Position numbers and translations under genes: made by a program. This document shows positions 698-46,624 of a stretch of 46,624 bases of DNA, piece by piece. Positions within the stretch are counted from its first letter, which is position 1, and each line of letters opens with the position of its first letter. The stretch is from a virus (taxonomy: Duplodnaviria; Heunggongvirae; Uroviricota; Caudoviricetes), in IMG/VR virus record IMGVR_UViG_3300029858_000359; one strand, given 5' to 3'. The notes under the pieces were generated by a model that worked only from the letters and a program-made list of their open reading frames with translations, was not told the origin of the DNA and searched no databases.

Positions 698-1060
698 GGG
701 GCTGATTCTGGATTCGACGGGATTTGCGAAACCCAAGGTGCATGCCGAGGGGCGGTTGGCCTCGTAAAAAGCCGCAAAAAATAGTCGCAAACGACGAAAA
801 CTACGCTTTAGCAGCTTAATAACCTGCTTAGAGCCCTCTCTCCCTAGCCTCCGCTCTTAGGACGGGGATCAAGAGAGGTCAAACCCAAAAGAGATCGCGT
901 GGAAGCCCTGCCTGGGGTTGAAGCGTTAAAACTTAATCAGGCTAGTTTGTTAGTGGCGTGTCCGTCCGCAGCTGGCAAGCGAATGTAAAGACTGACTAAG
1001 CATGTAGTACCGAGGATGTAGGAATTTCGGACGCGGGTTCAACTCCCGCCAGCTCCACCA
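698..1060 (+). ncRNA. ssrA: tmRNA (SsrA), about 363 nt
   Basis: Starts GGGGCTGATTCTGGATTCGACGGG, contains the tag-encoding stretch GCAAACGACGAAAACTACGCTTTAGCAGCTTAA, ends with tRNA-like arm GGGTTCAACTCCCGCCAGCTCCACCA. Confidence 0.95.
1028..1060. repeat. attL: ssrA 3'-end copy of the 33-bp direct repeat (partner at 41202-41234)
   Basis: CGGACGCGGGTTCAACTCCCGCCAGCTCCACCA recurs at 41202-41234 with one mismatch. Confidence 0.85.
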
Positions 1061-6550: not shown

Positions 6551-7599
6551 GAAATCGCCCCCAGAACCGCCAGTTCATTTTTCGCAATGGTGATATTGTC
6601 CGCCGGTGCAAGCAACTGATGGCTGTATTCCCCGTTCGCACCGGAAATCGCTTCACTGATACGTGACACCTTCAGTTCTCCCTGCGGATAACCATCACGC
6701 AGCAGGAACGAACGCAACTCCGCGGTGATGGCAGCCCGTATTTCCGGTGTGTCCGGCGTCACACGGATATGAAAATCCACCGTATGTGCCACCGGCCTGA
6801 ACACATACAAATCAGAGCCTGCCACCGGGGCCAGTGGCCCGATATGTTGTCTTGCCGCCGTTTCCGTTGATTCTTCCGGAATGGGATTAATCAGGTCACT
6901 GCTGGCAATCATCACACCGACAGTCCCCGTTCCCATCCAGTGTCGGTATGTCCATGCGCGGGTAATGCCAGGCACTTCTTTAGCCCAGACGACATAGTCC
7001 CCGTCAGCCCCGCCCTGCGGCGTCCAGTAATACCGCTCAATGACGCGGGCGCGCCACGTTTCCAGCTCTTCAGTATCAAATCCGCCTGTCAGGGTGTCAG
7101 CCACACCGGAAGACGGCAGACCATTCACCGGCGTGACCAGGATTAATGCCGTACCGTCGTCAGCGTTACCGACCGCACCTGCACTTGAGCAGGCGATCGG
7201 CACGCGCAGGACACCACCGGAGCTGATTGCATCGTCAGTTGTCGTGTACTGCACCAGGTCATCGCGCTGAATAACACTCCCGGCAGTCACCTTCAGGCCA
7301 TCGCTGACACCTTCCCAGCGCATATACCCGCTGGCAACCGTGGCTCCCTTGCGCGGGCACCGTTTCATCGCAGCATGTCGCCCCAGCCAGGACTCATCGC
7401 ACAGGTCAGGCAGCATGTTCATTGCCAGATAATCGATGTATCCGTAAACCGTATGCAGCGCCGCCGCATACACCTTTGCCCGCACGTCTTCATCCATGCG
7501 CCGGAGCGTGTCGCTGACGTCCAGCCTGGCGAATAAATCGTTACGGAGCATACTGATATTTTCTGCCAGCGTCGGGCGCTGAAATTCACTGTCCGCCAT
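6541..7599 (-). CDS. Baseplate J-like protein (Mu gp47-like)
   Basis: 352-aa ORF in conserved baseplate gene order. Confidence 0.7.
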
Positions 7600-38358: not shown

Positions 38359-38375
38359 TCCAAGCATGAAACTAT

Positions 38376-38400
38376 TGGCCACAATTTGTGGCCATTTTAC
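38376..38400 (+). terminator. Perfect 19-bp palindrome followed by T-run between int and the OLD-like gene (terminator or operator)
   Basis: TGGCCACAATTTGTGGCCA followed by TTTTAC. Confidence 0.45.
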
Positions 38401-38416
38401 GGAGCAAGATAGAAAC

Positions 38417-40150
38417 ATGGCAAATCAAATTACCAAACTAAAAAATATAAATGTTGTGAAGTTTCGCGGACTGAAAAATATAAACATCGAGTTTGGTTCT
38501 CGCCTAACTGTTATTTGTGGTAAAAATGGCACATCTAAATCCACAATTCTTGGCATTATCGCCCAAATATTTAGCTTTACAAAGGACTTTACCAAAAACC
38601 CTGAGACTGATTTAACACAATATAAAACATTAACAAATGGCAGCTTCAAGTCAGCTTTCAGCGAACATTTTAGGCTTTCAGAACAATTTGATGTTCCTGG
38701 TTCAATGGACGTCAAAATTAGTGTCTATGATGGTGCATCGAACAAACATCTTGAAAAACTAACATTAGGTTTATACAGCTACAGTGACAGAGATAAATCA
38801 AGGCCTGTAGTCAGGGGAAATGATTCAATACCGGAAAAAAACCAAAGTAGAAACGTTACTCATCCTGTTATTTTTTTAAGCTTAGCACGACTTCTTCCTA
38901 TTACATTAAGGACTGATTACTCAACACGGGATGTTCAGTACATCAATGAAAATTCTGATGAAATCAGAATGATGAGTAACCAACTCTTACTAAAAAACAA
39001 TGGAAGCTCAGTAACAGCAACAAAAGGTACTATCGATTCAATGGTTGTCCATGGTGACAATTATGATCACCAATCAGTATCTGTTGGTGAAGATAATGTT
39101 GGACAATTAATCCAAGCAATTTTTTCATTTAAAAGATTGAAGGAAACTTATTCTGATTATCATGGCGGAATATTGTTAATTGATGAAGCCGATGCAGGTC
39201 TTTTCCCTGCTGCACAGTTAGAGCTAATTAATATTCTAACTAAAGCAGCAAAACAATACGATCTGCAAATAATCATGACCTCGCACTCTCCATTAATAAT
39301 AGAGGATATCTATAATCGTTCAAAACAAGATAGTGATAGCTTTAAAACAATATATCTTACAGACACATATGGAGATATTAAAACAAAGAATAATCTTTCA
39401 TGGACAGATATCCACGCTGATTTACATGTTGAAACTGTAAAAATTAATGATGACATTTGTCTTCCAAAGGCAAATGTATATTTTGAAGACAAAGAAGGTT
39501 TCGACTTTTTCAAACAATTGATAACAGATCGAAAAATAAATAAAATATTAAATCCATTAGGGAATATAAATATTAGCTGCTCTGCCATGCTTGACTTAAT
39601 GGCAAGAAAAATACCAGAATTTACAGCTAAAAGCTTGATCGTCTTAGACGGTGATGTTGTTCACGACAATAGTGCTAATGCAAAAAAAGCCAAAAAAGAA
39701 AAAAACTTATGTTTGCTTCCAAGCACCTTACCTCCAGACCAAATGATTTTTGAGTTTTTATATAATTTACCACCTGATGATGCATATTGGGAAAATAAAA
39801 ATAAATTTACAAAAGCTGTTTTTATGAAAACAGCTAAAGACATAATTGCAACGCTAAAGATTGGTAACGCTCCGATTGATTTAAAAATCCTTATAGATAA
39901 TTATAAAAAAGTTAACAAAAACCATGGCGGGATAGTTAGAAAACTGTTTAAAGATTTTGCACATACGACTCAATTTCAGGCCCAAGTAAAAGGGCGAGTT
40001 AAAGATAACCCATATCGATATTGGGTCGAGAAAAATCCTGTGCAATCGGATAGCTTCAAGAATGAACTAATAAAGAGTCTTAAAGTTATTATGACAAGTG
40101 GACATGGTGTCGATTCTGCTACCATCTCATCATATCTGTCAGATAACTAA
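38417..40150 (+). CDS. OLD-family nuclease-like protein: N-terminal ABC/AAA-type ATPase plus C-terminal TOPRIM-like domain
   Basis: Walker A GKNGTSKST, Walker B ILLIDEADAG, TSHSP signature, C-terminal FEDKEG and LIVLDGDVVHD (Glu and DxD TOPRIM-like); start at MANQITK (ORF track start 38366 lacks a ribosome-binding site). Confidence 0.7.
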   Translation: MANQITKLKNINVVKFRGLKNINIEFGSRLTVICGKNGTSKSTILGIIAQIFSFTKDFTKNPETDLTQYKTLTNGSFKSAFSEHFRLSEQFDVPGSMDVKISVYDGASNKHLEKLTLGLYSYSDRDKSRPVVRGNDSIPEKNQSRNVTHPVIFLSLARLLPITLRTDYSTRDVQYINENSDEIRMMSNQLLLKNNGSSVTATKGTIDSMVVHGDNYDHQSVSVGEDNVGQLIQAIFSFKRLKETYSDYHGGILLIDEADAGLFPAAQLELINILTKAAKQYDLQIIMTSHSPLIIEDIYNRSKQDSDSFKTIYLTDTYGDIKTKNNLSWTDIHADLHVETVKINDDICLPKANVYFEDKEGFDFFKQLITDRKINKILNPLGNINISCSAMLDLMARKIPEFTAKSLIVLDGDVVHDNSANAKKAKKEKNLCLLPSTLPPDQMIFEFLYNLPPDDAYWENKNKFTKAVFMKTAKDIIATLKIGNAPIDLKILIDNYKKVNKNHGGIVRKLFKDFAHTTQFQAQVKGRVKDNPYRYWVEKNPVQSDSFKNELIKSLKVIMTSGHGVDSATISSYLSDN

Positions 40151-40157
40151 TTGATTA

Positions 40158-40196
40158 AAAAGGGCTTTATGTGATGGCCACAAAGCCCTTTTTTTG
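40158..40196 (+). terminator. Rho-independent terminator after the OLD-like gene
   Basis: AAAGGGCTTT-loop-AAAGCCCTTT followed by TTTTTT. Confidence 0.65.
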
Positions 40197-40229
40197 ATAT
40201 ACTTTAGATCTGACATTTAGAGGTATCAT

Positions 40230-41129
40230 ATGCGTTTTAACACCCCACTTCGCTATCCTGGCGGTAAAGGCAAGCTTGCAAATTTCATGCTTCGGCTTAT
40301 TGAAGAAAATAATCTTTCGCCTATACATTATGCCGAACCATATGCTGGGGGTGCTGGTTTAGCATTGAAACTGTTACATCTAAATGCAGCTGAAAAAATC
40401 ATCCTTAATGATATTAATATTTCTGTTTATGCTTTTTGGCACAGTGTATTAAATCATGCAGATCAATTATGTTCTTTAATTGAAAGAACTGAAGTTACAA
40501 TGGATGAATGGTTTAGGCAGAAAGATATAATTAATAATCCTAAAGACCATGATCTTTTAACAATTGGTTTCTCAACCTTTTTTCTCAATAGAACAAATCG
40601 TTCTGGAATATTAAAAGGTGGAGTAATTGGCGGTAAAAATCAAGAAGGGAAATGGAAGCTTGACGCTCGCTATAATAAGAGTGATTTGATTTCTCGAATC
40701 CATAAAATATCAGAAAATCGTCACAGAATAGATTTATATAACATGGATGCAATTGATTTCATTAAAAAAATAGTTATTCAATTGCCACAAAACTCATTAA
40801 CATATTTGGATCCACCTTATTACATAAAAGGTAAAGGTTTATATATCAACCATTATAATCATGATGATCATGTTAGGGTTGCAAAAGTCGTACAGAATAA
40901 TATTAAAACACCTTGGATTGTTTCTTACGATAACACTCCTGAGATCCAAGCTATGTATAAGACATCATCATTAGTATATGGAATAAACTACAGTGCTCAA
41001 GATCGGTACAAAGGATCTGAGGTAATGTTCTTCAGTGAACGATTGAAAATCTTTAAAACAGATGATCCAACTAAGGTAAAAGCGCCTGTATTTAAAAGAG
41101 GATGTGTTGACGACCACATCCAGACATAA
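40230..41129 (+). CDS. Dam-family (alpha-class) N6-adenine DNA methyltransferase
   Basis: Motifs RYPGGKGKL, EPYAGGAG (AdoMet binding) and DPPY (catalytic), order as in Dam; AGAGG ribosome-binding site. Confidence 0.8.
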   Translation: MRFNTPLRYPGGKGKLANFMLRLIEENNLSPIHYAEPYAGGAGLALKLLHLNAAEKIILNDINISVYAFWHSVLNHADQLCSLIERTEVTMDEWFRQKDIINNPKDHDLLTIGFSTFFLNRTNRSGILKGGVIGGKNQEGKWKLDARYNKSDLISRIHKISENRHRIDLYNMDAIDFIKKIVIQLPQNSLTYLDPPYYIKGKGLYINHYNHDDHVRVAKVVQNNIKTPWIVSYDNTPEIQAMYKTSSLVYGINYSAQDRYKGSEVMFFSERLKIFKTDDPTKVKAPVFKRGCVDDHIQT

Positions 41130-41201: not shown

Positions 41202-41234
41202 CGGACTCGGGTTCAACTCCCGCCAGCTCCACCA
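41202..41234. repeat. attR of the prophage and attL of the following P4-type island: copy of the ssrA 3' end
   Basis: CGGACTCGGGTTCAACTCCCGCCAGCTCCACCA, 32 of 33 identical to 1028-1060. Confidence 0.85.
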
Positions 41235-41399
41235 CTTTTTAGTTGTTTGAAGTTCAATGAAGTCTACTAAGCCCACACAGCACAAGCTCTGCGGGCTTTT
41301 TTACGTCTATTGTCGTCCAGTGAGAATTGCTGAGAACTACGAGTTATGGCACCCTGAATGGGACCCACTAAGAAGGGTCCAAAAACCGAGGGTCCCAAA

Positions 41400-42629
41400 A
41401 TGGCAAAAATCGCTAAGAAGCTCACTGACACTGAAATCAAAAGCACCAAGCCAGCCGATAAAGAAATCAACTTGTTTGACGGTGATGGTCTGATTCTACG
41501 AATCGCTCCTTTGGCGAAAGGAGGCAAGAAAAATTGGTATTTCAGGTATGCAGTACCAGTGAGCAAGAAAAGAACCAAAATGAGCCTTGGGACATATCCT
41601 CACCTTACCCTTGCAAGAGCCAGAGCCTTACGTGATGAATATCTCTCCTTTCTGGCAAATGGTGTTGATCCCCAAATCCATAACAACGATAAGGCGAAGG
41701 CATTAAAGAGTGCTACTGAGCACACTCTCCAAGCCGTAGCGCGGAAATGGTTAGATGAGAAGGTAAAGACATCAGGTATCTCACAAGACCATGCAGCAGA
41801 CATCTGGCGCAGCTTAGAGAGAAATGTCTTTCCCGGTCTGGGTAATGTCCCTATCAATGAGATCCGACCTAAGCTCTTAAAACAACACCTTGATCCTATT
41901 GAGCAACGAGGCGTATTGGAAACTCTACGCCGTATCATTTCACGTCTGAATGAAATCTTCCGGTGGGCAGCTACTGAAGAACTTATTGAGTTCAACCCGG
42001 CTGACAACCTTGGTCAAAGATTCAGTAAACCAAAAAAGCAAAATATGCCTGCCCTTCCCCCAAGCGAATTGCCAAGGTTTATGGAATCTTTGACGAATGC
42101 GTCAATCCGGTTGGAAACACGTATGCTAATTGAATGGCAATTGTTGACATGGGTTCGTCCGGGTGAAGCCGTTCGCGCAAGGTGGTCTGATATTGATACA
42201 ACCAACAGCATTTGGAACATTCCTGCTGATTTCATGAAAATGAAAAAGCTTCACAAAGTTCCTTTGAGTAAAGAAGCTTTGCGCATCCTTGAATTAATGA
42301 AATCAATAAGTGGGCATAGAGAATGGGTTTTCCCCAGCATAAAAGCGCCTCTTAATCATATGCATGAACAAACAGCCAACGCAGCTATCATCCGAATGGG
42401 GTTCGGAGGCGAGCTTGTAGCTCACGGTATGCGTTCTATTGCACGAACAGCGGCAGAGGAGTCTGGTAAATTCAGAGCTGAAGTTCTTGAGGCAGCGCTT
42501 GCCCACTCGAAAAAAGATGAAATTATCGCAGCATACAATCGTGCAGAATATCTGATAGAGCGACAGAGTTTGATGCAATGGTGGAGTGATTACGTTCAAG
42601 CTCAAAGATCAAATGCTCTGGTAGCCTAA
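41400..42629 (+). CDS. P4-type tyrosine integrase
   Basis: N-terminal arm-binding region LFDGDGLILRIAPLAKGGKKNWYFRY typical of P4/CP4-57 integrases; C-terminal catalytic region AHGMRSIARTAAEE...AALAHS; start taken at MAKIAKK. Confidence 0.85.
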   Translation: MAKIAKKLTDTEIKSTKPADKEINLFDGDGLILRIAPLAKGGKKNWYFRYAVPVSKKRTKMSLGTYPHLTLARARALRDEYLSFLANGVDPQIHNNDKAKALKSATEHTLQAVARKWLDEKVKTSGISQDHAADIWRSLERNVFPGLGNVPINEIRPKLLKQHLDPIEQRGVLETLRRIISRLNEIFRWAATEELIEFNPADNLGQRFSKPKKQNMPALPPSELPRFMESLTNASIRLETRMLIEWQLLTWVRPGEAVRARWSDIDTTNSIWNIPADFMKMKKLHKVPLSKEALRILELMKSISGHREWVFPSIKAPLNHMHEQTANAAIIRMGFGGELVAHGMRSIARTAAEESGKFRAEVLEAALAHSKKDEIIAAYNRAEYLIERQSLMQWWSDYVQAQRSNALVA

Positions 42630-42667: not shown

Positions 42668-43084
42668 ATGGAAACCCTATTCAAAGTTTTTGAAAAATTT
42701 AGTTCCAGACCACTTTTTTTTATTTTTTTCGGACTCTCACTTTGTGAATTTTTTCAGAAACAATCTGTTCTGATGAATCCATCAGCAGATAACATCGCGA
42801 AATTATTCGCAGCCATGATATTAGTTGTTTTTTTTACTTGGGGATTTGAATGGCTAATCTTCAAGTTCAATGTAAACCTTGAACCTCATGATCAAGGCGA
42901 TATTGGACCAACAATTGGAACGGCTACTTTAGCTGTATACTTAGTTTATGCCTTTCACTTTCTCAGTGAAAATCCTGAAGCATTAAATTTAAAGTTATTA
43001 ACTAACTCTGGCTTTATATACAGCACAACTCTATTATTATTCTCATTAGAATGCATGAAGCTTAGAAGACTTAAACAAAAATAA
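42668..43084 (+). CDS. Hypothetical polytopic membrane protein, 138 aa
   Basis: AT-rich ORF with GAAGG ribosome-binding site; several hydrophobic helices. Confidence 0.5.
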   Translation: METLFKVFEKFSSRPLFFIFFGLSLCEFFQKQSVLMNPSADNIAKLFAAMILVVFFTWGFEWLIFKFNVNLEPHDQGDIGPTIGTATLAVYLVYAFHFLSENPEALNLKLLTNSGFIYSTTLLLFSLECMKLRRLKQK

Positions 43085-43155: not shown

Positions 43156-44922
43156 TTATGGTAGCATCATTGATACATAATCCACACCAATCCTTGAGCT
43201 ATACTGAGACGCTATAGCCTGATATCTTTCTGCATAACCAGTTCTCAGTTGAGATTTAAGTTTGAGTCGGACAGGAACATTTTGCACGTTGCCATCCATA
43301 TTACTTAAAAACACGGCAGAAATAATATTTTTTTCTTCGCCATCAACTGTTGTTCCATGATTCAACACCACCATATAATCAACAACAGGAAGCGTTTTAT
43401 CCCCTTCGAAAATAGAGAGATATTTTCTTTGATTTTTATGCATTACATATATATATTTCGAATGTTCAGCAAATGGCAATGCTTTACTCTGACTGGCGTT
43501 AAAAAGCTCCAGAACTTTAATGAGCCTGTGCGGACTTAATCTTACATGGTGAGGGTCGTTACCCTGAGTAGGAACCAAATCACATGCCGCAGATACACAT
43601 AAATACCATTTGTTCGACTCTGTATCAAAGAAAATAGTGCCAGTAGAAATATGACCATCTTCAAAATTCTTTGAAGACAAATTCATATTTAAAGCATGAT
43701 ACATTTCGTGATAAGTATCATTATTTGATGGCAGATCCATTTTTGAAGAGCAATATTGGAGCAATGCAGCAACTCCGCTGTTAGCGTATTCATTTGAATA
43801 GCTATCAAAAACACTTTTGATAAATTCATCCAGCGTATTATTATTTTTAAGTCTTTGATAAAGCTCTTCTGATAAATTACCAAATACAAAGTCAATATTT
43901 CTACATCTAATATCAGGCGAGTCTGATTTTAATATCTCATTTAACCACGCAGCTTGACCGTAATGATCGTTAGCCAAATGATTTACAAAAGATAAAGCCT
44001 CAGCTTCGATTGCATTCTGAATTTCAGATTTTATTAACTGATAATAAGATGGTTTCCATTCAATGAGAGAATCATTGAGAGTTTGCCAAATCCTATCTCC
44101 ATCGTTTTCATGATCATCTTGAACCTTATGAAATAGGGAGACAAAGATATTACCACATTGAATCCATTTTACTCCGCTTTCATCACCCCGAATGACATTG
44201 CCAGATGTGTTGCTAGAAATAATTGCATTTCTAGACACAGCATATTCTGCAATCATTTTTGCAATGAAGTTTTTATCCTTTTGATCCTCCAACACAGCAT
44301 CATCATGTATTAATCTTTTAATTCTTCTACAAGGCTTACTGTCTTTAATATAGGCTATTGTTTCATCTCTTGTGAGAGCTTTATTACCATTATCATTTAA
44401 GTTCGGTAATACAACGTCTTCCCAATAACTTTGGACATCTTCATTATCGTAGTCAATGATCAAGCTGTTGATATCCAGAGCACCTTTGAGAGTCGATGAT
44501 ATCTGCATCCAAACCGTTTCTAAATTCTCTCTAGTATATATTACAATCATATTTAAATGATCGGAGTCTTTCAAATCTTGTAATAGTTTAAGTGTTTTAT
44601 CAGGTGCATTATTATCAAGATGATAATCTACAATAATAAGATCTGATTTTCTAATCCGATCCACATCGAAATTAACAGAACCATTGTCAACATCACAAAT
44701 CATATTTTTAGATTGAAAAAAGCTCTCAAGAGTAGCGGCTCGTTTAGATGAGTCAATTTTGTTGTAGTCTAAATCAACTTCGTTATTCAACGCCCTGATT
44801 GATTCAGAATACGTCAGAAAATCGTCATCAATCATGACAACGGAACGAATTGCATTTTCGCAGAAAGTTTTCTGGACAAGAGAATTATAAATTGCCACTG
44901 TCATATTAGAACTCCACTCCAT
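43156..44922 (-). CDS. Receiver (REC)-like domain protein with about 430-aa C-terminal domain of unknown function
   Basis: N-terminal region VVMIDDD ... SDLIIVDYHLDNNAPDKTLKLLQDL ... NMIVIYT follows response-regulator receiver topology; no DNA-binding output recognised; start overlaps the stop of the upstream kinase-like gene. Confidence 0.6.
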   Translation of the reverse strand: MEWSSNMTVAIYNSLVQKTFCENAIRSVVMIDDDFLTYSESIRALNNEVDLDYNKIDSSKRAATLESFFQSKNMICDVDNGSVNFDVDRIRKSDLIIVDYHLDNNAPDKTLKLLQDLKDSDHLNMIVIYTRENLETVWMQISSTLKGALDINSLIIDYDNEDVQSYWEDVVLPNLNDNGNKALTRDETIAYIKDSKPCRRIKRLIHDDAVLEDQKDKNFIAKMIAEYAVSRNAIISSNTSGNVIRGDESGVKWIQCGNIFVSLFHKVQDDHENDGDRIWQTLNDSLIEWKPSYYQLIKSEIQNAIEAEALSFVNHLANDHYGQAAWLNEILKSDSPDIRCRNIDFVFGNLSEELYQRLKNNNTLDEFIKSVFDSYSNEYANSGVAALLQYCSSKMDLPSNNDTYHEMYHALNMNLSSKNFEDGHISTGTIFFDTESNKWYLCVSAACDLVPTQGNDPHHVRLSPHRLIKVLELFNASQSKALPFAEHSKYIYVMHKNQRKYLSIFEGDKTLPVVDYMVVLNHGTTVDGEEKNIISAVFLSNMDGNVQNVPVRLKLKSQLRTGYAERYQAIASQYSSRIGVDYVSMMLP

Positions 44923-46624
44923 TGAACTGGATCACAAAATTAGCGCCATCTTTTATTAAATAGTTATCGCCTTCATCAGGTTCTGAATACCATATTTTAT
45001 GATGTGCAACAGCAAGGTTTTCTCGACATAGATACAGACCTACCCCATGTCCATTTGCTCTTTTGCTATAAAATAGTTCAAATAGTCACGGGATATCATC
45101 GGTATCAATTGCCGGACCAGAATTTGCTATGATAACCAAAGAATTCACAAAACCAATCTTTATGAGCCTATTATTTGACAGACTGACCCAATACATTGCA
45201 TTGTTGATAATATTAGTAAAAACAGGATAGATCCTTGATGGTATATCTGTTATTGCGATTTGCTTAAACTCTTCACTAAATTCAATAGTTATTCGTTGCC
45301 GTTCGAAACGCTCCCCAAAGAACTTCAGGACATAATCCATGATATTTTTTCCAGTTATTCTCTGCCTGGATTGATAACCTGATATTTTCAAAGGTGATAA
45401 GAAACGTATTTGTTGAGTAAGCGATCTGTGAGCATTTAACGCCAATGAAAAACCAGGGTGTTCTTTTACAGAAGTAGGAAGAGAGTTTAGTCCTCTGGTT
45501 ACCATAGAATCCATTTCTTCAAGTTCATGAGATATTATCTCAACACTAATACCTAACTGTGCAAGCGCGTTTAAACTTTTAGCTTTTTCTTCAAAATATG
45601 AGCGTTCTTCTTCAGATAATGAGAATGCTGAATCTAAGTTTATACCTTCAAATAATCTATCGAGACCTTTTATTATTGATTGATATTTGAAAGTTAGGGT
45701 ATCAACTGACTCAACATATAAACTATCGAGCAAATTAAACACATTTTCAATTTGTGAATCATTATCTATTGAATCAACAACTGATATAGTTTTAGCATAA
45801 TAATCACTTCGATCAACCTTTATTTCATCGGCCCATTTTTTTAAAAGAGAATGTATCTTCTCCTCTATCGTGTTATTAAACTTAGTTAGTTTAGAATTAA
45901 TAATACCTTGATTTTTTTCAAGGTGATTTTTCGCTGACAATGAAGGCTCAAGTTTATTTAATTCAGAATCAAGTTTATTAATTGCTAACTTCATTTGTAG
46001 AATATACGCAGAGAACTCATTAAATTTATCTCTGTAGTCTCTATATTTCTCTTCATACATTCCAAGTTTTGGAGGTTTGATAGGCGTTTTAATTTCACTG
46101 CGCAACGCATCTAAGTTTGTAAGATCACTGTCTATAATTTTAAGATAGTTTAAATCTAACGAACCATCAGTTTTATCAAGCTTAGTTTTCAGCCTTTTAA
46201 CAGCCTCCAAGGAAGCATCAAGAACTGGTGTCTGATTCTTCAAAGCTTCTGAAAAACTTTTTTGTGTTGATTTTCGAGCTTGTTGTTGAGCAGATTTTCT
46301 TAACTCTTTTTCACGCTTAACTTGTTCTAAAAGCTCTTTACGGTCATCAGAACGTGAACCAAAAAATCTATCAGCAAGTTCAGTTAACAAATTAGATATA
46401 ATAGTTTTCAGTTCTCTTGCAGCCTGGTTTCTTATGAATCCCTCTCTCCCCGACTTATCTTTCAGCTCTTTATTACTGGATTGAGTAATTCCAATATAAC
46501 CAAAAATCCTTCTATTAGACCAATAATATCGCCCTGCATTCCATGAACGTCTTTCTTCTATCTGGAAGAAATCATTATCTACTCGACCATAAGGTAATAC
46601 TCTCAAGCTATCCCTAAAAATCAT
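44906..46624 (-). pseudogene. Histidine-kinase-like gene interrupted by an in-frame TGA (45086-45088); N-terminus beyond the window
   Basis: H-box-like SHELEEMDSM, N-box NIINNAMYW, G1 IANSGPAI, then in-frame TGA, then same-frame LFELFYSKRANGHGVGLYLCRENLAVAHH (G2 box) ending at the TAA at 44906. Confidence 0.55.

What the first reader, a model, noticed from the sequence alone, without database searches (positions are those of the whole stretch)
45080..45095. In-frame TGA inside the kinase-like gene between the G1 and G2 ATPase boxes
Seen in sequence: the reading frame reads ...ANSGPAIDTDDIP-TGA-LFELFYSKRANGHGVGLYLCRENL... with the stop and the downstream G2 box in the same frame, so a single codon separates two halves of one ATPase domain. 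Inference: a recent nonsense mutation (pseudogenisation, perhaps relieving a toxic system), a sequencing error, or stop-codon readthrough. Selenocysteine is implausible here.
Basis: seen in the sequence. Interest (0 to 1): 0.5.

Follow-up and report, generated by a model that had tools for sequence, protein, structure and literature searches.

The report
Nonsense mutation in a decayed kinase gene
The in-frame TGA is a real single-base change (CGA, arginine, to TGA) carried by one E. coli lineage, in a kinase-like gene that an IS3 insertion had already cut down, so it is ordinary gene decay and not recoding or a sequencing error.

Summary
On the minus strand a TGA at 45088-45086 interrupts a HEF_HK/HATPase_c kinase-like gene between the G1 box (ANSGPAI) and the F and G2 boxes (LFELFY, GHGVGL). 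Another 59 in-frame codons run on to the family's normal TAA.

- **Ancestral codon.** Related E. coli have CGA (Arg) here. The position is R in 112 and K in 7 of 119 family representatives.
- **Rarity.** None of 561 complete E. coli genomes carrying this locus matches the TGA version of the site, and none of 8 metagenome contigs has TGA.
- **Not a read error.** The exact 512-aa truncated product is encoded on at least 10 public contigs. Two gut-metagenome contigs match the window at 7539 of 7539 bases.
- **Already damaged.** Every E. coli copy examined is 5'-truncated. IS3 removed about 380 codons, including the N-terminal HATPase_c_3 domain, and the upstream C5 methylase gene. Intact homologues are 988 aa. 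The TGA contigs have the same IS3 junction.

The TGA is therefore a second lesion in a relic of a mobile-island system that has been described but never tested functionally. Selenocysteine and programmed readthrough are not supported. Relief of toxicity remains possible, but nothing here supports it. Interest is low.

The parts
45086..45088 (-). Premature TGA stop, codon 513 of the 572-codon E. coli ORF. The ancestral codon is CGA (Arg); on the + strand the change is G to A at 45088.
   Evidence: The position is R in 112 and K in 7 of 119 family representatives.
45089..46624 (-). The 512-codon ORF upstream of the stop. It holds a coiled-coil region, the HEF_HK (DHp-like) domain at 45559-45383, the N box (FTNIINNAMYW, about 45220-45188) and the G1 box (45127-45107). 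It corresponds to residues 417-928 of intact 988-aa homologues.
44906..45085 (-). Stranded 3' segment of 59 in-frame codons plus the natural TAA. It encodes the F box (45085-45068), the G2 box (45052-45035) and the last strands of the HATPase_c domain. I saw no ATG, GTG or TTG start codon near its 5' end, so it is unlikely to be translated on its own.
43156..44904 (-). Partner gene encoding a Response_reg_2 protein of 582 aa: a receiver domain plus about 400 aa of unknown function. Its start lies 1 nt after the kinase gene's TAA (TAATATG), so the two are probably translationally coupled. It carries a private missense change, N5I, at 44891.
42668..43084 (+). A 138-aa ORF of unknown function that travels with the island. 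It is present next to the response-regulator gene in intact islands too.
   Evidence: No hit in Pfam, PADLOC or NCBIfam.
41358..42629 (+). P4-type tyrosine integrase of the older ssrA-linked island that carries the kinase and regulator pair.

Best explanation
The window is E. coli DNA next to ssrA. It holds the remnant of a mobile island whose intact form encodes a three-gene operon: a C5 DNA methylase, a 988-aa soluble kinase-like protein (HATPase_c_3, HEF_HK, HATPase_c) and a 582-aa Response_reg_2 protein. In E. coli, an IS3-associated deletion removed the methylase gene and roughly the first 380 codons of the kinase gene. What is left is a 572-codon ORF that starts at an internal Met. In one sublineage, which also carries an SfI/SfII-like prophage at ssrA, a single C-to-T transition changed Arg codon 513 (CGA) to TGA. 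Translation now ends between the G1 and F/G2 boxes. The product lacks part of the ATP-binding pocket and should be kinase-dead (inference). Ribosomes also stop 177 nt before the tightly coupled response-regulator start, which probably lowers its expression too (inference). The most likely reading is neutral decay of a gene that was already crippled, not a regulated event.
For: - The codon is CGA in E. coli 2014C-3307, S6aCHROMc and M10.
- All 561 complete E. coli genomes with the locus show exactly one mismatch to a 61-mer centred on the TGA, and none matches it fully.
- All 8 JGI metagenome contigs with the motif have CGA.
- The position is R in 112 and K in 7 of 119 family representatives (alignment).
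- The exact 512-aa product is on at least 10 contigs from ENA, Logan and JGI.
- L004 and L005 are 100% identical to the window over 7539 nt and L006 over 1536 nt. The match includes the TGA and, for L004 and L005, the private SNPs at 44891 and 42636.
- Intact homologues at 99% identity are 988 aa and have an N-terminal HATPase_c_3 domain.
- IS3 lies about 115 nt upstream of the ATG in L001-L003, and the same junction is present in the TGA contigs L004-L006.
- Intact islands have a C5 methylase gene that overlaps the kinase start.
- Between the E. coli allele and the intact allele, the kinase fragment has 5 nonsynonymous and 3 synonymous differences, against 1 and 12 in the regulator gene (Fisher p = 0.014).
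- S6aCHROMc has a separate 1-bp deletion in the same ORF.
Against: - The 572-codon ORF is intact in most of the roughly 560 E. coli genomes and about 2000 protein variants cluster with it. Some residual function of the sensor-less kinase core cannot be excluded.
- The regulator gene is intact and conserved.
- The 5:3 versus 1:12 contrast cannot be assigned to a branch, and the five amino-acid changes sit in a coiled-coil stretch that varies across the family anyway.
- Expression of the remnant was not measured. The promoter scan upstream found nothing above chance.
- The S6aCHROMc frameshift is in a run of 7 T and could be an assembly error.
Confidence: 0.87

Rival explanations
1. The nonsense mutation was selected because the sensor-less, methylase-less kinase and regulator pair was harmful, and killing the kinase (and lowering regulator expression by polarity) relieved the cost.
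For: - The system belongs to a conflict or R-M-associated family (PMC8011034), and a similar methylase + kinase + receiver + HNH system is an anti-phage defence (bioRxiv 10.1101/2025.09.30.679545).
- The same lineage also has a private missense change (N5I) in the regulator, 197 nt away.
Against: - About 560 complete E. coli genomes keep the truncated ORF open at this site with no such lesion, so the remnant is not strongly toxic.
- The toxin-fold hint is weak, and Foldseek found nothing with E <= 0.001.
- No toxicity data exist for this family.
- One nonsense allele in one lineage is what neutral decay predicts.
Confidence: 0.09
2. Sequencing or assembly error: the true base is C and the gene is open.
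For: It is a single-base difference from all 561 complete genomes that carry the locus.
Against: The identical allele occurs in at least 10 contigs from different archives and assemblers, including one with about 24x coverage. They share two further private SNPs with the window. The site is not in a homopolymer.
Confidence: 0.02
3. Recoding: the UGA is decoded, by tRNA-Trp readthrough or as selenocysteine, to give a functional full-length protein.
For: The context is Pro-UGA-C. From my own knowledge, UGA-C is the weakest E. coli termination signal (Poole, Brown and Tate 1995, listed in the references of PMC9841425), and a C-terminal Pro slows termination. A small percentage of accidental readthrough inserting Trp is therefore plausible. 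The mutant RNA folds into a hairpin around the stop (-21.1 kcal/mol, z -2.4).
Against: - The stop is not conserved in any homologue, which have R or K and never Cys.
- The ancestral CGA sequence folds unremarkably (-17.1 kcal/mol, z -0.8). The extra stability is a by-product of the new U-A pair.
- The stop lies inside the 5' arm of the hairpin, unlike the arrangement I recall for a bacterial SECIS element.
- Any readthrough product would still lack the N-terminal domain.
Confidence: 0.02

Closest known systems
HEF_HK / Response_reg_2 two-component-like pair (Pfam PF19191 and PF19192; Bellieny-Rabelo, Pretorius and Moleleki 2021, PMC8011034)
   Same: The window's two genes match both Pfam models above their cut-offs and are adjacent, as in 91.6% of the loci in that paper. 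Intact relatives have the paper's 'group 1' architecture (HATPase_c_3 + HEF_HK + HATPase_c) and an upstream C5 methylase, the association the paper reports.
   Different: The E. coli copy is a degraded member. IS3 removed the N-terminal GHKL domain and the methylase, and in this lineage the C-terminal HATPase_c is also cut by a stop. It looks like the paper's 'group 2' architecture only because it is truncated.
Ambrosia anti-phage system (bioRxiv 10.1101/2025.09.30.679545)
   Same: It combines a DNA methylase, an HK/HSP90-like ATPase and a receiver protein in one cluster, and phosphorylation of the receiver Asp is required for defence. A ScoMcrA-SBD/HNH gene lies near the Salmonella copy of the present system.
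   Different: Ambrosia has an N6-adenine methylase, an XRE regulator, a receiver with a winged-helix domain and an HNH gene inside the cluster. Here the methylase is a C5 type and the receiver carries about 400 aa of unknown fold. Homology was not tested because no Ambrosia sequences were available.
Canonical histidine-kinase catalytic (CA) domain, for example Thermotoga ThkA (PDB 3A0T/3A0R)
   Same: The N, G1, F and G2 boxes align: NSGPAI...LFELFY...GHGVGL against NSGPPI...IFSPFF...GTGLGL.
   Different: The protein is soluble and has a paraMORC-like N-terminal GHKL domain in place of a membrane sensor. In the window the domain is split by the stop.
Ordinary decay of island genes by IS insertion followed by point mutations
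   Same: IS3 truncation came first, then a lineage-private nonsense SNP. An independent 1-bp deletion is present in another strain.
   Different: Nothing distinguishes it from the usual pattern.

Membership tests
HEF_HK kinase-like family (PF19191 + PF02518) | A DHp-like HEF_HK domain with the conserved His-Glu | tested here: met
   Pfam HEF_HK scores 26.1 bits against a cut-off of 24.1, over residues 356-414. H366 and E367 (ISHELEE) are invariant in alignment A2.
HEF_HK kinase-like family (PF19191 + PF02518) | A complete C-terminal HATPase_c domain (N, G1, F and G2 boxes) in one ORF | tested here: not met
   All the boxes are present in the DNA, but the TGA at 45088-45086 separates N and G1 from F and G2. 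The feature is met in relatives with CGA.
HEF_HK kinase-like family, 'group 1' architecture | An N-terminal HATPase_c_3 (paraMORC-like GHKL) domain | tested here: not met
   The E. coli ORF equals residues 417-988 of the 988-aa homologues. IS3 lies about 115 nt upstream of the ATG in relatives and in the TGA-haplotype contigs. The window itself ends at the ATG.
HEF_HK / Response_reg_2 system | An adjacent Response_reg_2 gene with a receiver fold and acidic pocket | tested here: met
   [not shown]
HEF_HK / Response_reg_2 system | An associated DNA methylase or R-M gene directly upstream | tested here: not met
   Intact islands have a PF00145 methylase gene that overlaps the kinase start. In E. 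coli, IS3 and an amylase gene fragment follow instead.
Programmed stop-codon recoding (selenocysteine or readthrough) | The stop codon is conserved in orthologues, with Cys in non-Sec homologues | tested here: not met
   None of the 119 representatives has a stop here; they have R or K. None of the 561 E. coli genomes and none of the 8 metagenome contigs has TGA.
Programmed stop-codon recoding (selenocysteine or readthrough) | A dedicated downstream RNA element (SECIS-like hairpin) | tested here: not met
   The only hairpin contains the stop in its own stem and is unremarkable in the ancestral sequence (z -0.8, against -2.4 after the mutation).
Nonsense-mutation pseudogene | A sense codon in close relatives, downstream frame still homologous, and the allele reproducible in independent data | tested here: met
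Ambrosia defence system | Sequence homology of the kinase and receiver proteins to AbrB and AbrC | not testable with these tools
   No Ambrosia sequences were available. Only the text description of the domains was read.

The most novel reading that the evidence does not exclude
The IS3-truncated kinase core and its response-regulator partner might still form a working, sensor-less signalling or toxin module in E. coli. In that case the Pro-UGA-C nonsense allele would be an attenuating variant. It would remove most of the kinase and most coupled regulator translation, while leaky readthrough leaves a trickle of R513W full-length protein. It would have been selected because the methylase-less remnant is costly.
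Probability: 0.07. Interest if true: 0.35.

Novelty: already known. Interest (0 to 1): 0.1.

Why it matters
It matters little as biology. This is a lineage-private nonsense SNP in a gene remnant, and is mainly useful as a marker for that E. coli sublineage.

There are two practical by-products.

- The abundant 572-aa E. coli 'ATP-binding protein' is an IS3-truncated fragment of a 988-aa protein. It should not be read as a natural short architecture.
- The intact methylase, paraMORC-kinase and receiver operon in Klebsiella, Serratia and Salmonella is the right object for functional tests of this uncharacterised, probably defence-related family.

Tried and rejected
- **PADLOC** gave no hit for the full-length kinase and only a marginal transmembrane-model hit for the regulator.
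- **NCBIfam** gave nothing for the regulator or the 138-aa ORF.
- **Promoter scan** upstream of the truncated ORF found nothing above chance.
- **Literature.** The V. cholerae WASA paper turned out to be irrelevant. Poole et al. 1995 could not be fetched, so the UGA-C statement rests on my own knowledge. A look-up of the Pectobacterium 572-aa protein found nothing on record.
- **Short forms in other species.** I considered that the 572-aa forms elsewhere mean a natural short isoform. I rejected this for Salmonella, where the full 996-codon ORF is open and only the annotation is short.
- **Alternative genetic code.** I considered a TGA-sense code and rejected it. The DNA is E. coli and the neighbouring ORFs are long under table 11.

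Full report
**Observation.** Reading the minus strand from 46624 gives a 512-codon ORF that ends ...VIIANSGPAIDTDDIP-TGA at 45088-45086. The same frame continues LFELFYSKRANGHGVGLYLCRENLAVAHHKIWYSEPDEGDNYLIKDGANFVIQFNGVEF-TAA, with the TAA at 44908-44906. With X in place of the stop, Pfam HATPase_c matches straight across it (residues 462-553, E 5.9e-11). HEF_HK matches residues 356-414. The domain also aligns with the solved catalytic domain of a Thermotoga sensor kinase (3A0T), which places the stop between NSGP (G1) and the F and G2 boxes.

**What the codon was.** The window is E. coli. The 3.5 kb covering this gene and its neighbour matches 562 complete genomes at 99% identity or better. 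In strain 2014C-3307 the codon is CGA (Arg). Across 3525 bases that strain differs from the window at only two positions, 45088 and 44891. The two genomes that share the window's adjacent prophage junction, S6aCHROMc and M10, also have CGA. A 61-mer centred on the stop finds 561 genomes, and every one has exactly one mismatch. An exact-pattern scan of JGI metagenomes that allowed C or T found 8 contigs, all with CGA. Across the protein family the position is R in 112 and K in 7 of 119 cluster representatives (alignment). The event is a single C-to-T transition on the coding strand, CGA to TGA.

**Real allele or read error.** The exact 512-aa truncated product is on record on at least 10 contigs from ENA, Logan and JGI/IMG. 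Two human-gut metagenome contigs, L004 (from run ERR912155, project PRJEB9576) and L005 (ERZ857605, about 24x coverage), are identical to the window at 7539 of 7539 bases. A Logan assembly of SRR30129689 (L006) is identical at 1536 of 1536 bases. The L004 and L005 matches include the TGA and the window's other two private SNPs, at 44891 and 42636. The site is not in a homopolymer. A sequencing error is effectively excluded. This is a haplotype circulating in an E. coli sublineage.

**The gene was already broken.**
- Homologues at 99% identity in Klebsiella, Serratia and Salmonella are 988 aa. They have an N-terminal HATPase_c_3 (paraMORC-like GHKL) domain, and the E. coli ORF equals their residues 417-988.
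- In all three E. coli relatives I fetched, an IS3 element lies about 115 nt upstream of the ATG. Homology to the intact gene stops at ...GGTAGGATCA|CGCAGGGGTCGGCCC, around codon 383. Beyond IS3 lies an unrelated amylase gene fragment.
- The TGA-bearing contigs L004-L006 run into the same IS3 end and stop there.
- Intact islands (L007, L008) sit at the same ssrA-side integrase. They encode a PF00145 C5 DNA methylase whose gene overlaps the kinase start, then the 988-aa kinase, then the 582-aa regulator.
- So E. coli has lost the methylase gene, the kinase gene's own start and upstream region, and its N-terminal domain. The TGA is a second hit.
- S6aCHROMc has a separate 1-bp deletion in the same ORF. 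It is in a run of T, so it may be an assembly artefact.
- Between the E. coli allele and the intact allele the kinase fragment has 5 nonsynonymous and 3 synonymous differences. The regulator gene has 1 and 12 (Fisher p = 0.014). This fits weaker constraint on the kinase part, but the branch cannot be assigned and the changes lie in a variable coiled-coil stretch.

**Consequences (inferred).**
- The 512-aa product lacks the F and G2 boxes and the last strands of the ATP-binding domain, so it should be unable to bind ATP.
- I saw no start codon near the 5' end of the stranded 59-codon segment, so it is unlikely to be translated separately.
- The regulator's ATG lies 1 nt after the kinase gene's natural TAA (TAATATG). 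Stopping 177 nt early should uncouple its translation and may add polarity.
- The context, Pro-UGA-C, is to my knowledge about the leakiest termination context in E. coli. A little accidental Trp readthrough is plausible, but nothing suggests it is programmed. The ancestral CGA sequence folds unremarkably (z -0.8), and the stronger hairpin in the mutant (z -2.4) comes from the new U-A pair.

**What the system is.** The pair belongs to the HEF_HK / Response_reg_2 two-component-like family, which was defined bioinformatically by Bellieny-Rabelo et al. 2021 (PMC8011034). That paper reports 91.6% gene linkage, enrichment of C5 methylases and R-M genes nearby, and a proposed paraMORC origin. No experimental function has been published for it in the library I could search.
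- The N-terminal GHKL domain of the intact protein also resembles the N-terminus of BbrUII/HgiDII-family restriction enzymes (NCBIfam, E 1.5e-13).
- The closest tested analogue I found is the Ambrosia defence system, which has a methylase, an HK-like ATPase, a receiver protein, an HNH nuclease and an XRE regulator (bioRxiv 10.1101/2025.09.30.679545). I could not test homology to it.

**Verdict.** This is a lineage-private nonsense mutation in an IS3-truncated relic of a mobile-island gene, and most likely neutral decay. Adaptive silencing of a costly remnant is possible but unsupported, because about 560 genomes keep the remnant ORF open at this site. Recoding and sequencing error are rejected. 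The finding is real but ordinary.

Noticed in passing
L001 9526-10839 (just beyond window end 46624); also L002, L003, L004-L006: The widespread 572-aa E. coli 'ATP-binding protein' is an IS3-truncated fragment of a 988-aa protein. The junction is GGTAGGATCA|CGCAGGGGTC near codon 383, and the upstream C5 methylase gene is also gone.
   Followed up: yes
L010 3993-6980 (Salmonella Bareilly, GCA_009468465.1): The full 996-codon kinase ORF is open by tblastn, but it is annotated only as a 572-aa protein from the internal Met. This is probably start-site bias carried over from the abundant truncated E. coli protein. 572-aa entries in other species may be the same artefact.
   Followed up: partly
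window 38366-41129: An AAA_15 ATPase (594 aa) and a Dam-type methylase (299 aa) at the prophage end. The methylase matches PADLOC PD-Lambda-5_B at E 5e-124, so this is a known prophage-borne defence system.
   Followed up: partly
window 698-1060, 1034-1060 and 41208-41234; prophage about 1100-41200: An SfI/SfII-like myovirus prophage (about 97% identity over the structural genes) is integrated into the 3' end of ssrA. A 27-nt repeat, CGGGTTCAACTCCCGCCAGCTCCACCA, flanks it, and it sits in tandem with the older integrase island.
   Followed up: partly
window 44891 and 42636: Two more SNPs are private to this haplotype: N5I in the response-regulator gene, 197 nt from the TGA, and an intergenic base just after the integrase gene. 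Both are shared by metagenome contigs L004 and L005.
   Followed up: partly
L002 14036 (equivalent to window 45836): Strain S6aCHROMc has a 1-bp deletion in a run of T in the same kinase remnant, annotated as frameshifted. This is either an independent lesion or a long-read assembly error.
   Followed up: no
[not shown]
   Followed up: partly
window 45037-45100 (minus strand): The C-to-U change adds a U-A pair to a coding-region hairpin that contains the stop codon. The energy goes from -17.1 to -21.1 kcal/mol and z from -0.8 to -2.4. This is probably incidental.
   Followed up: yes
window 41358-42629 compared with L001 4302-5530 and L002 9601-10829: The island's P4-type integrase gene is intact in the window and in strain M10 but frameshifted in 2014C-3307 and S6aCHROMc. 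That is further evidence of patchy decay of this island.
   Followed up: no
L010 9775-10650: In Salmonella, a ScoMcrA-SBD + HNH_2 (type IV restriction-like) gene lies about 0.5 kb beyond the island's 138-aa ORF. This is reminiscent of the HNH component of the Ambrosia system.
   Followed up: no
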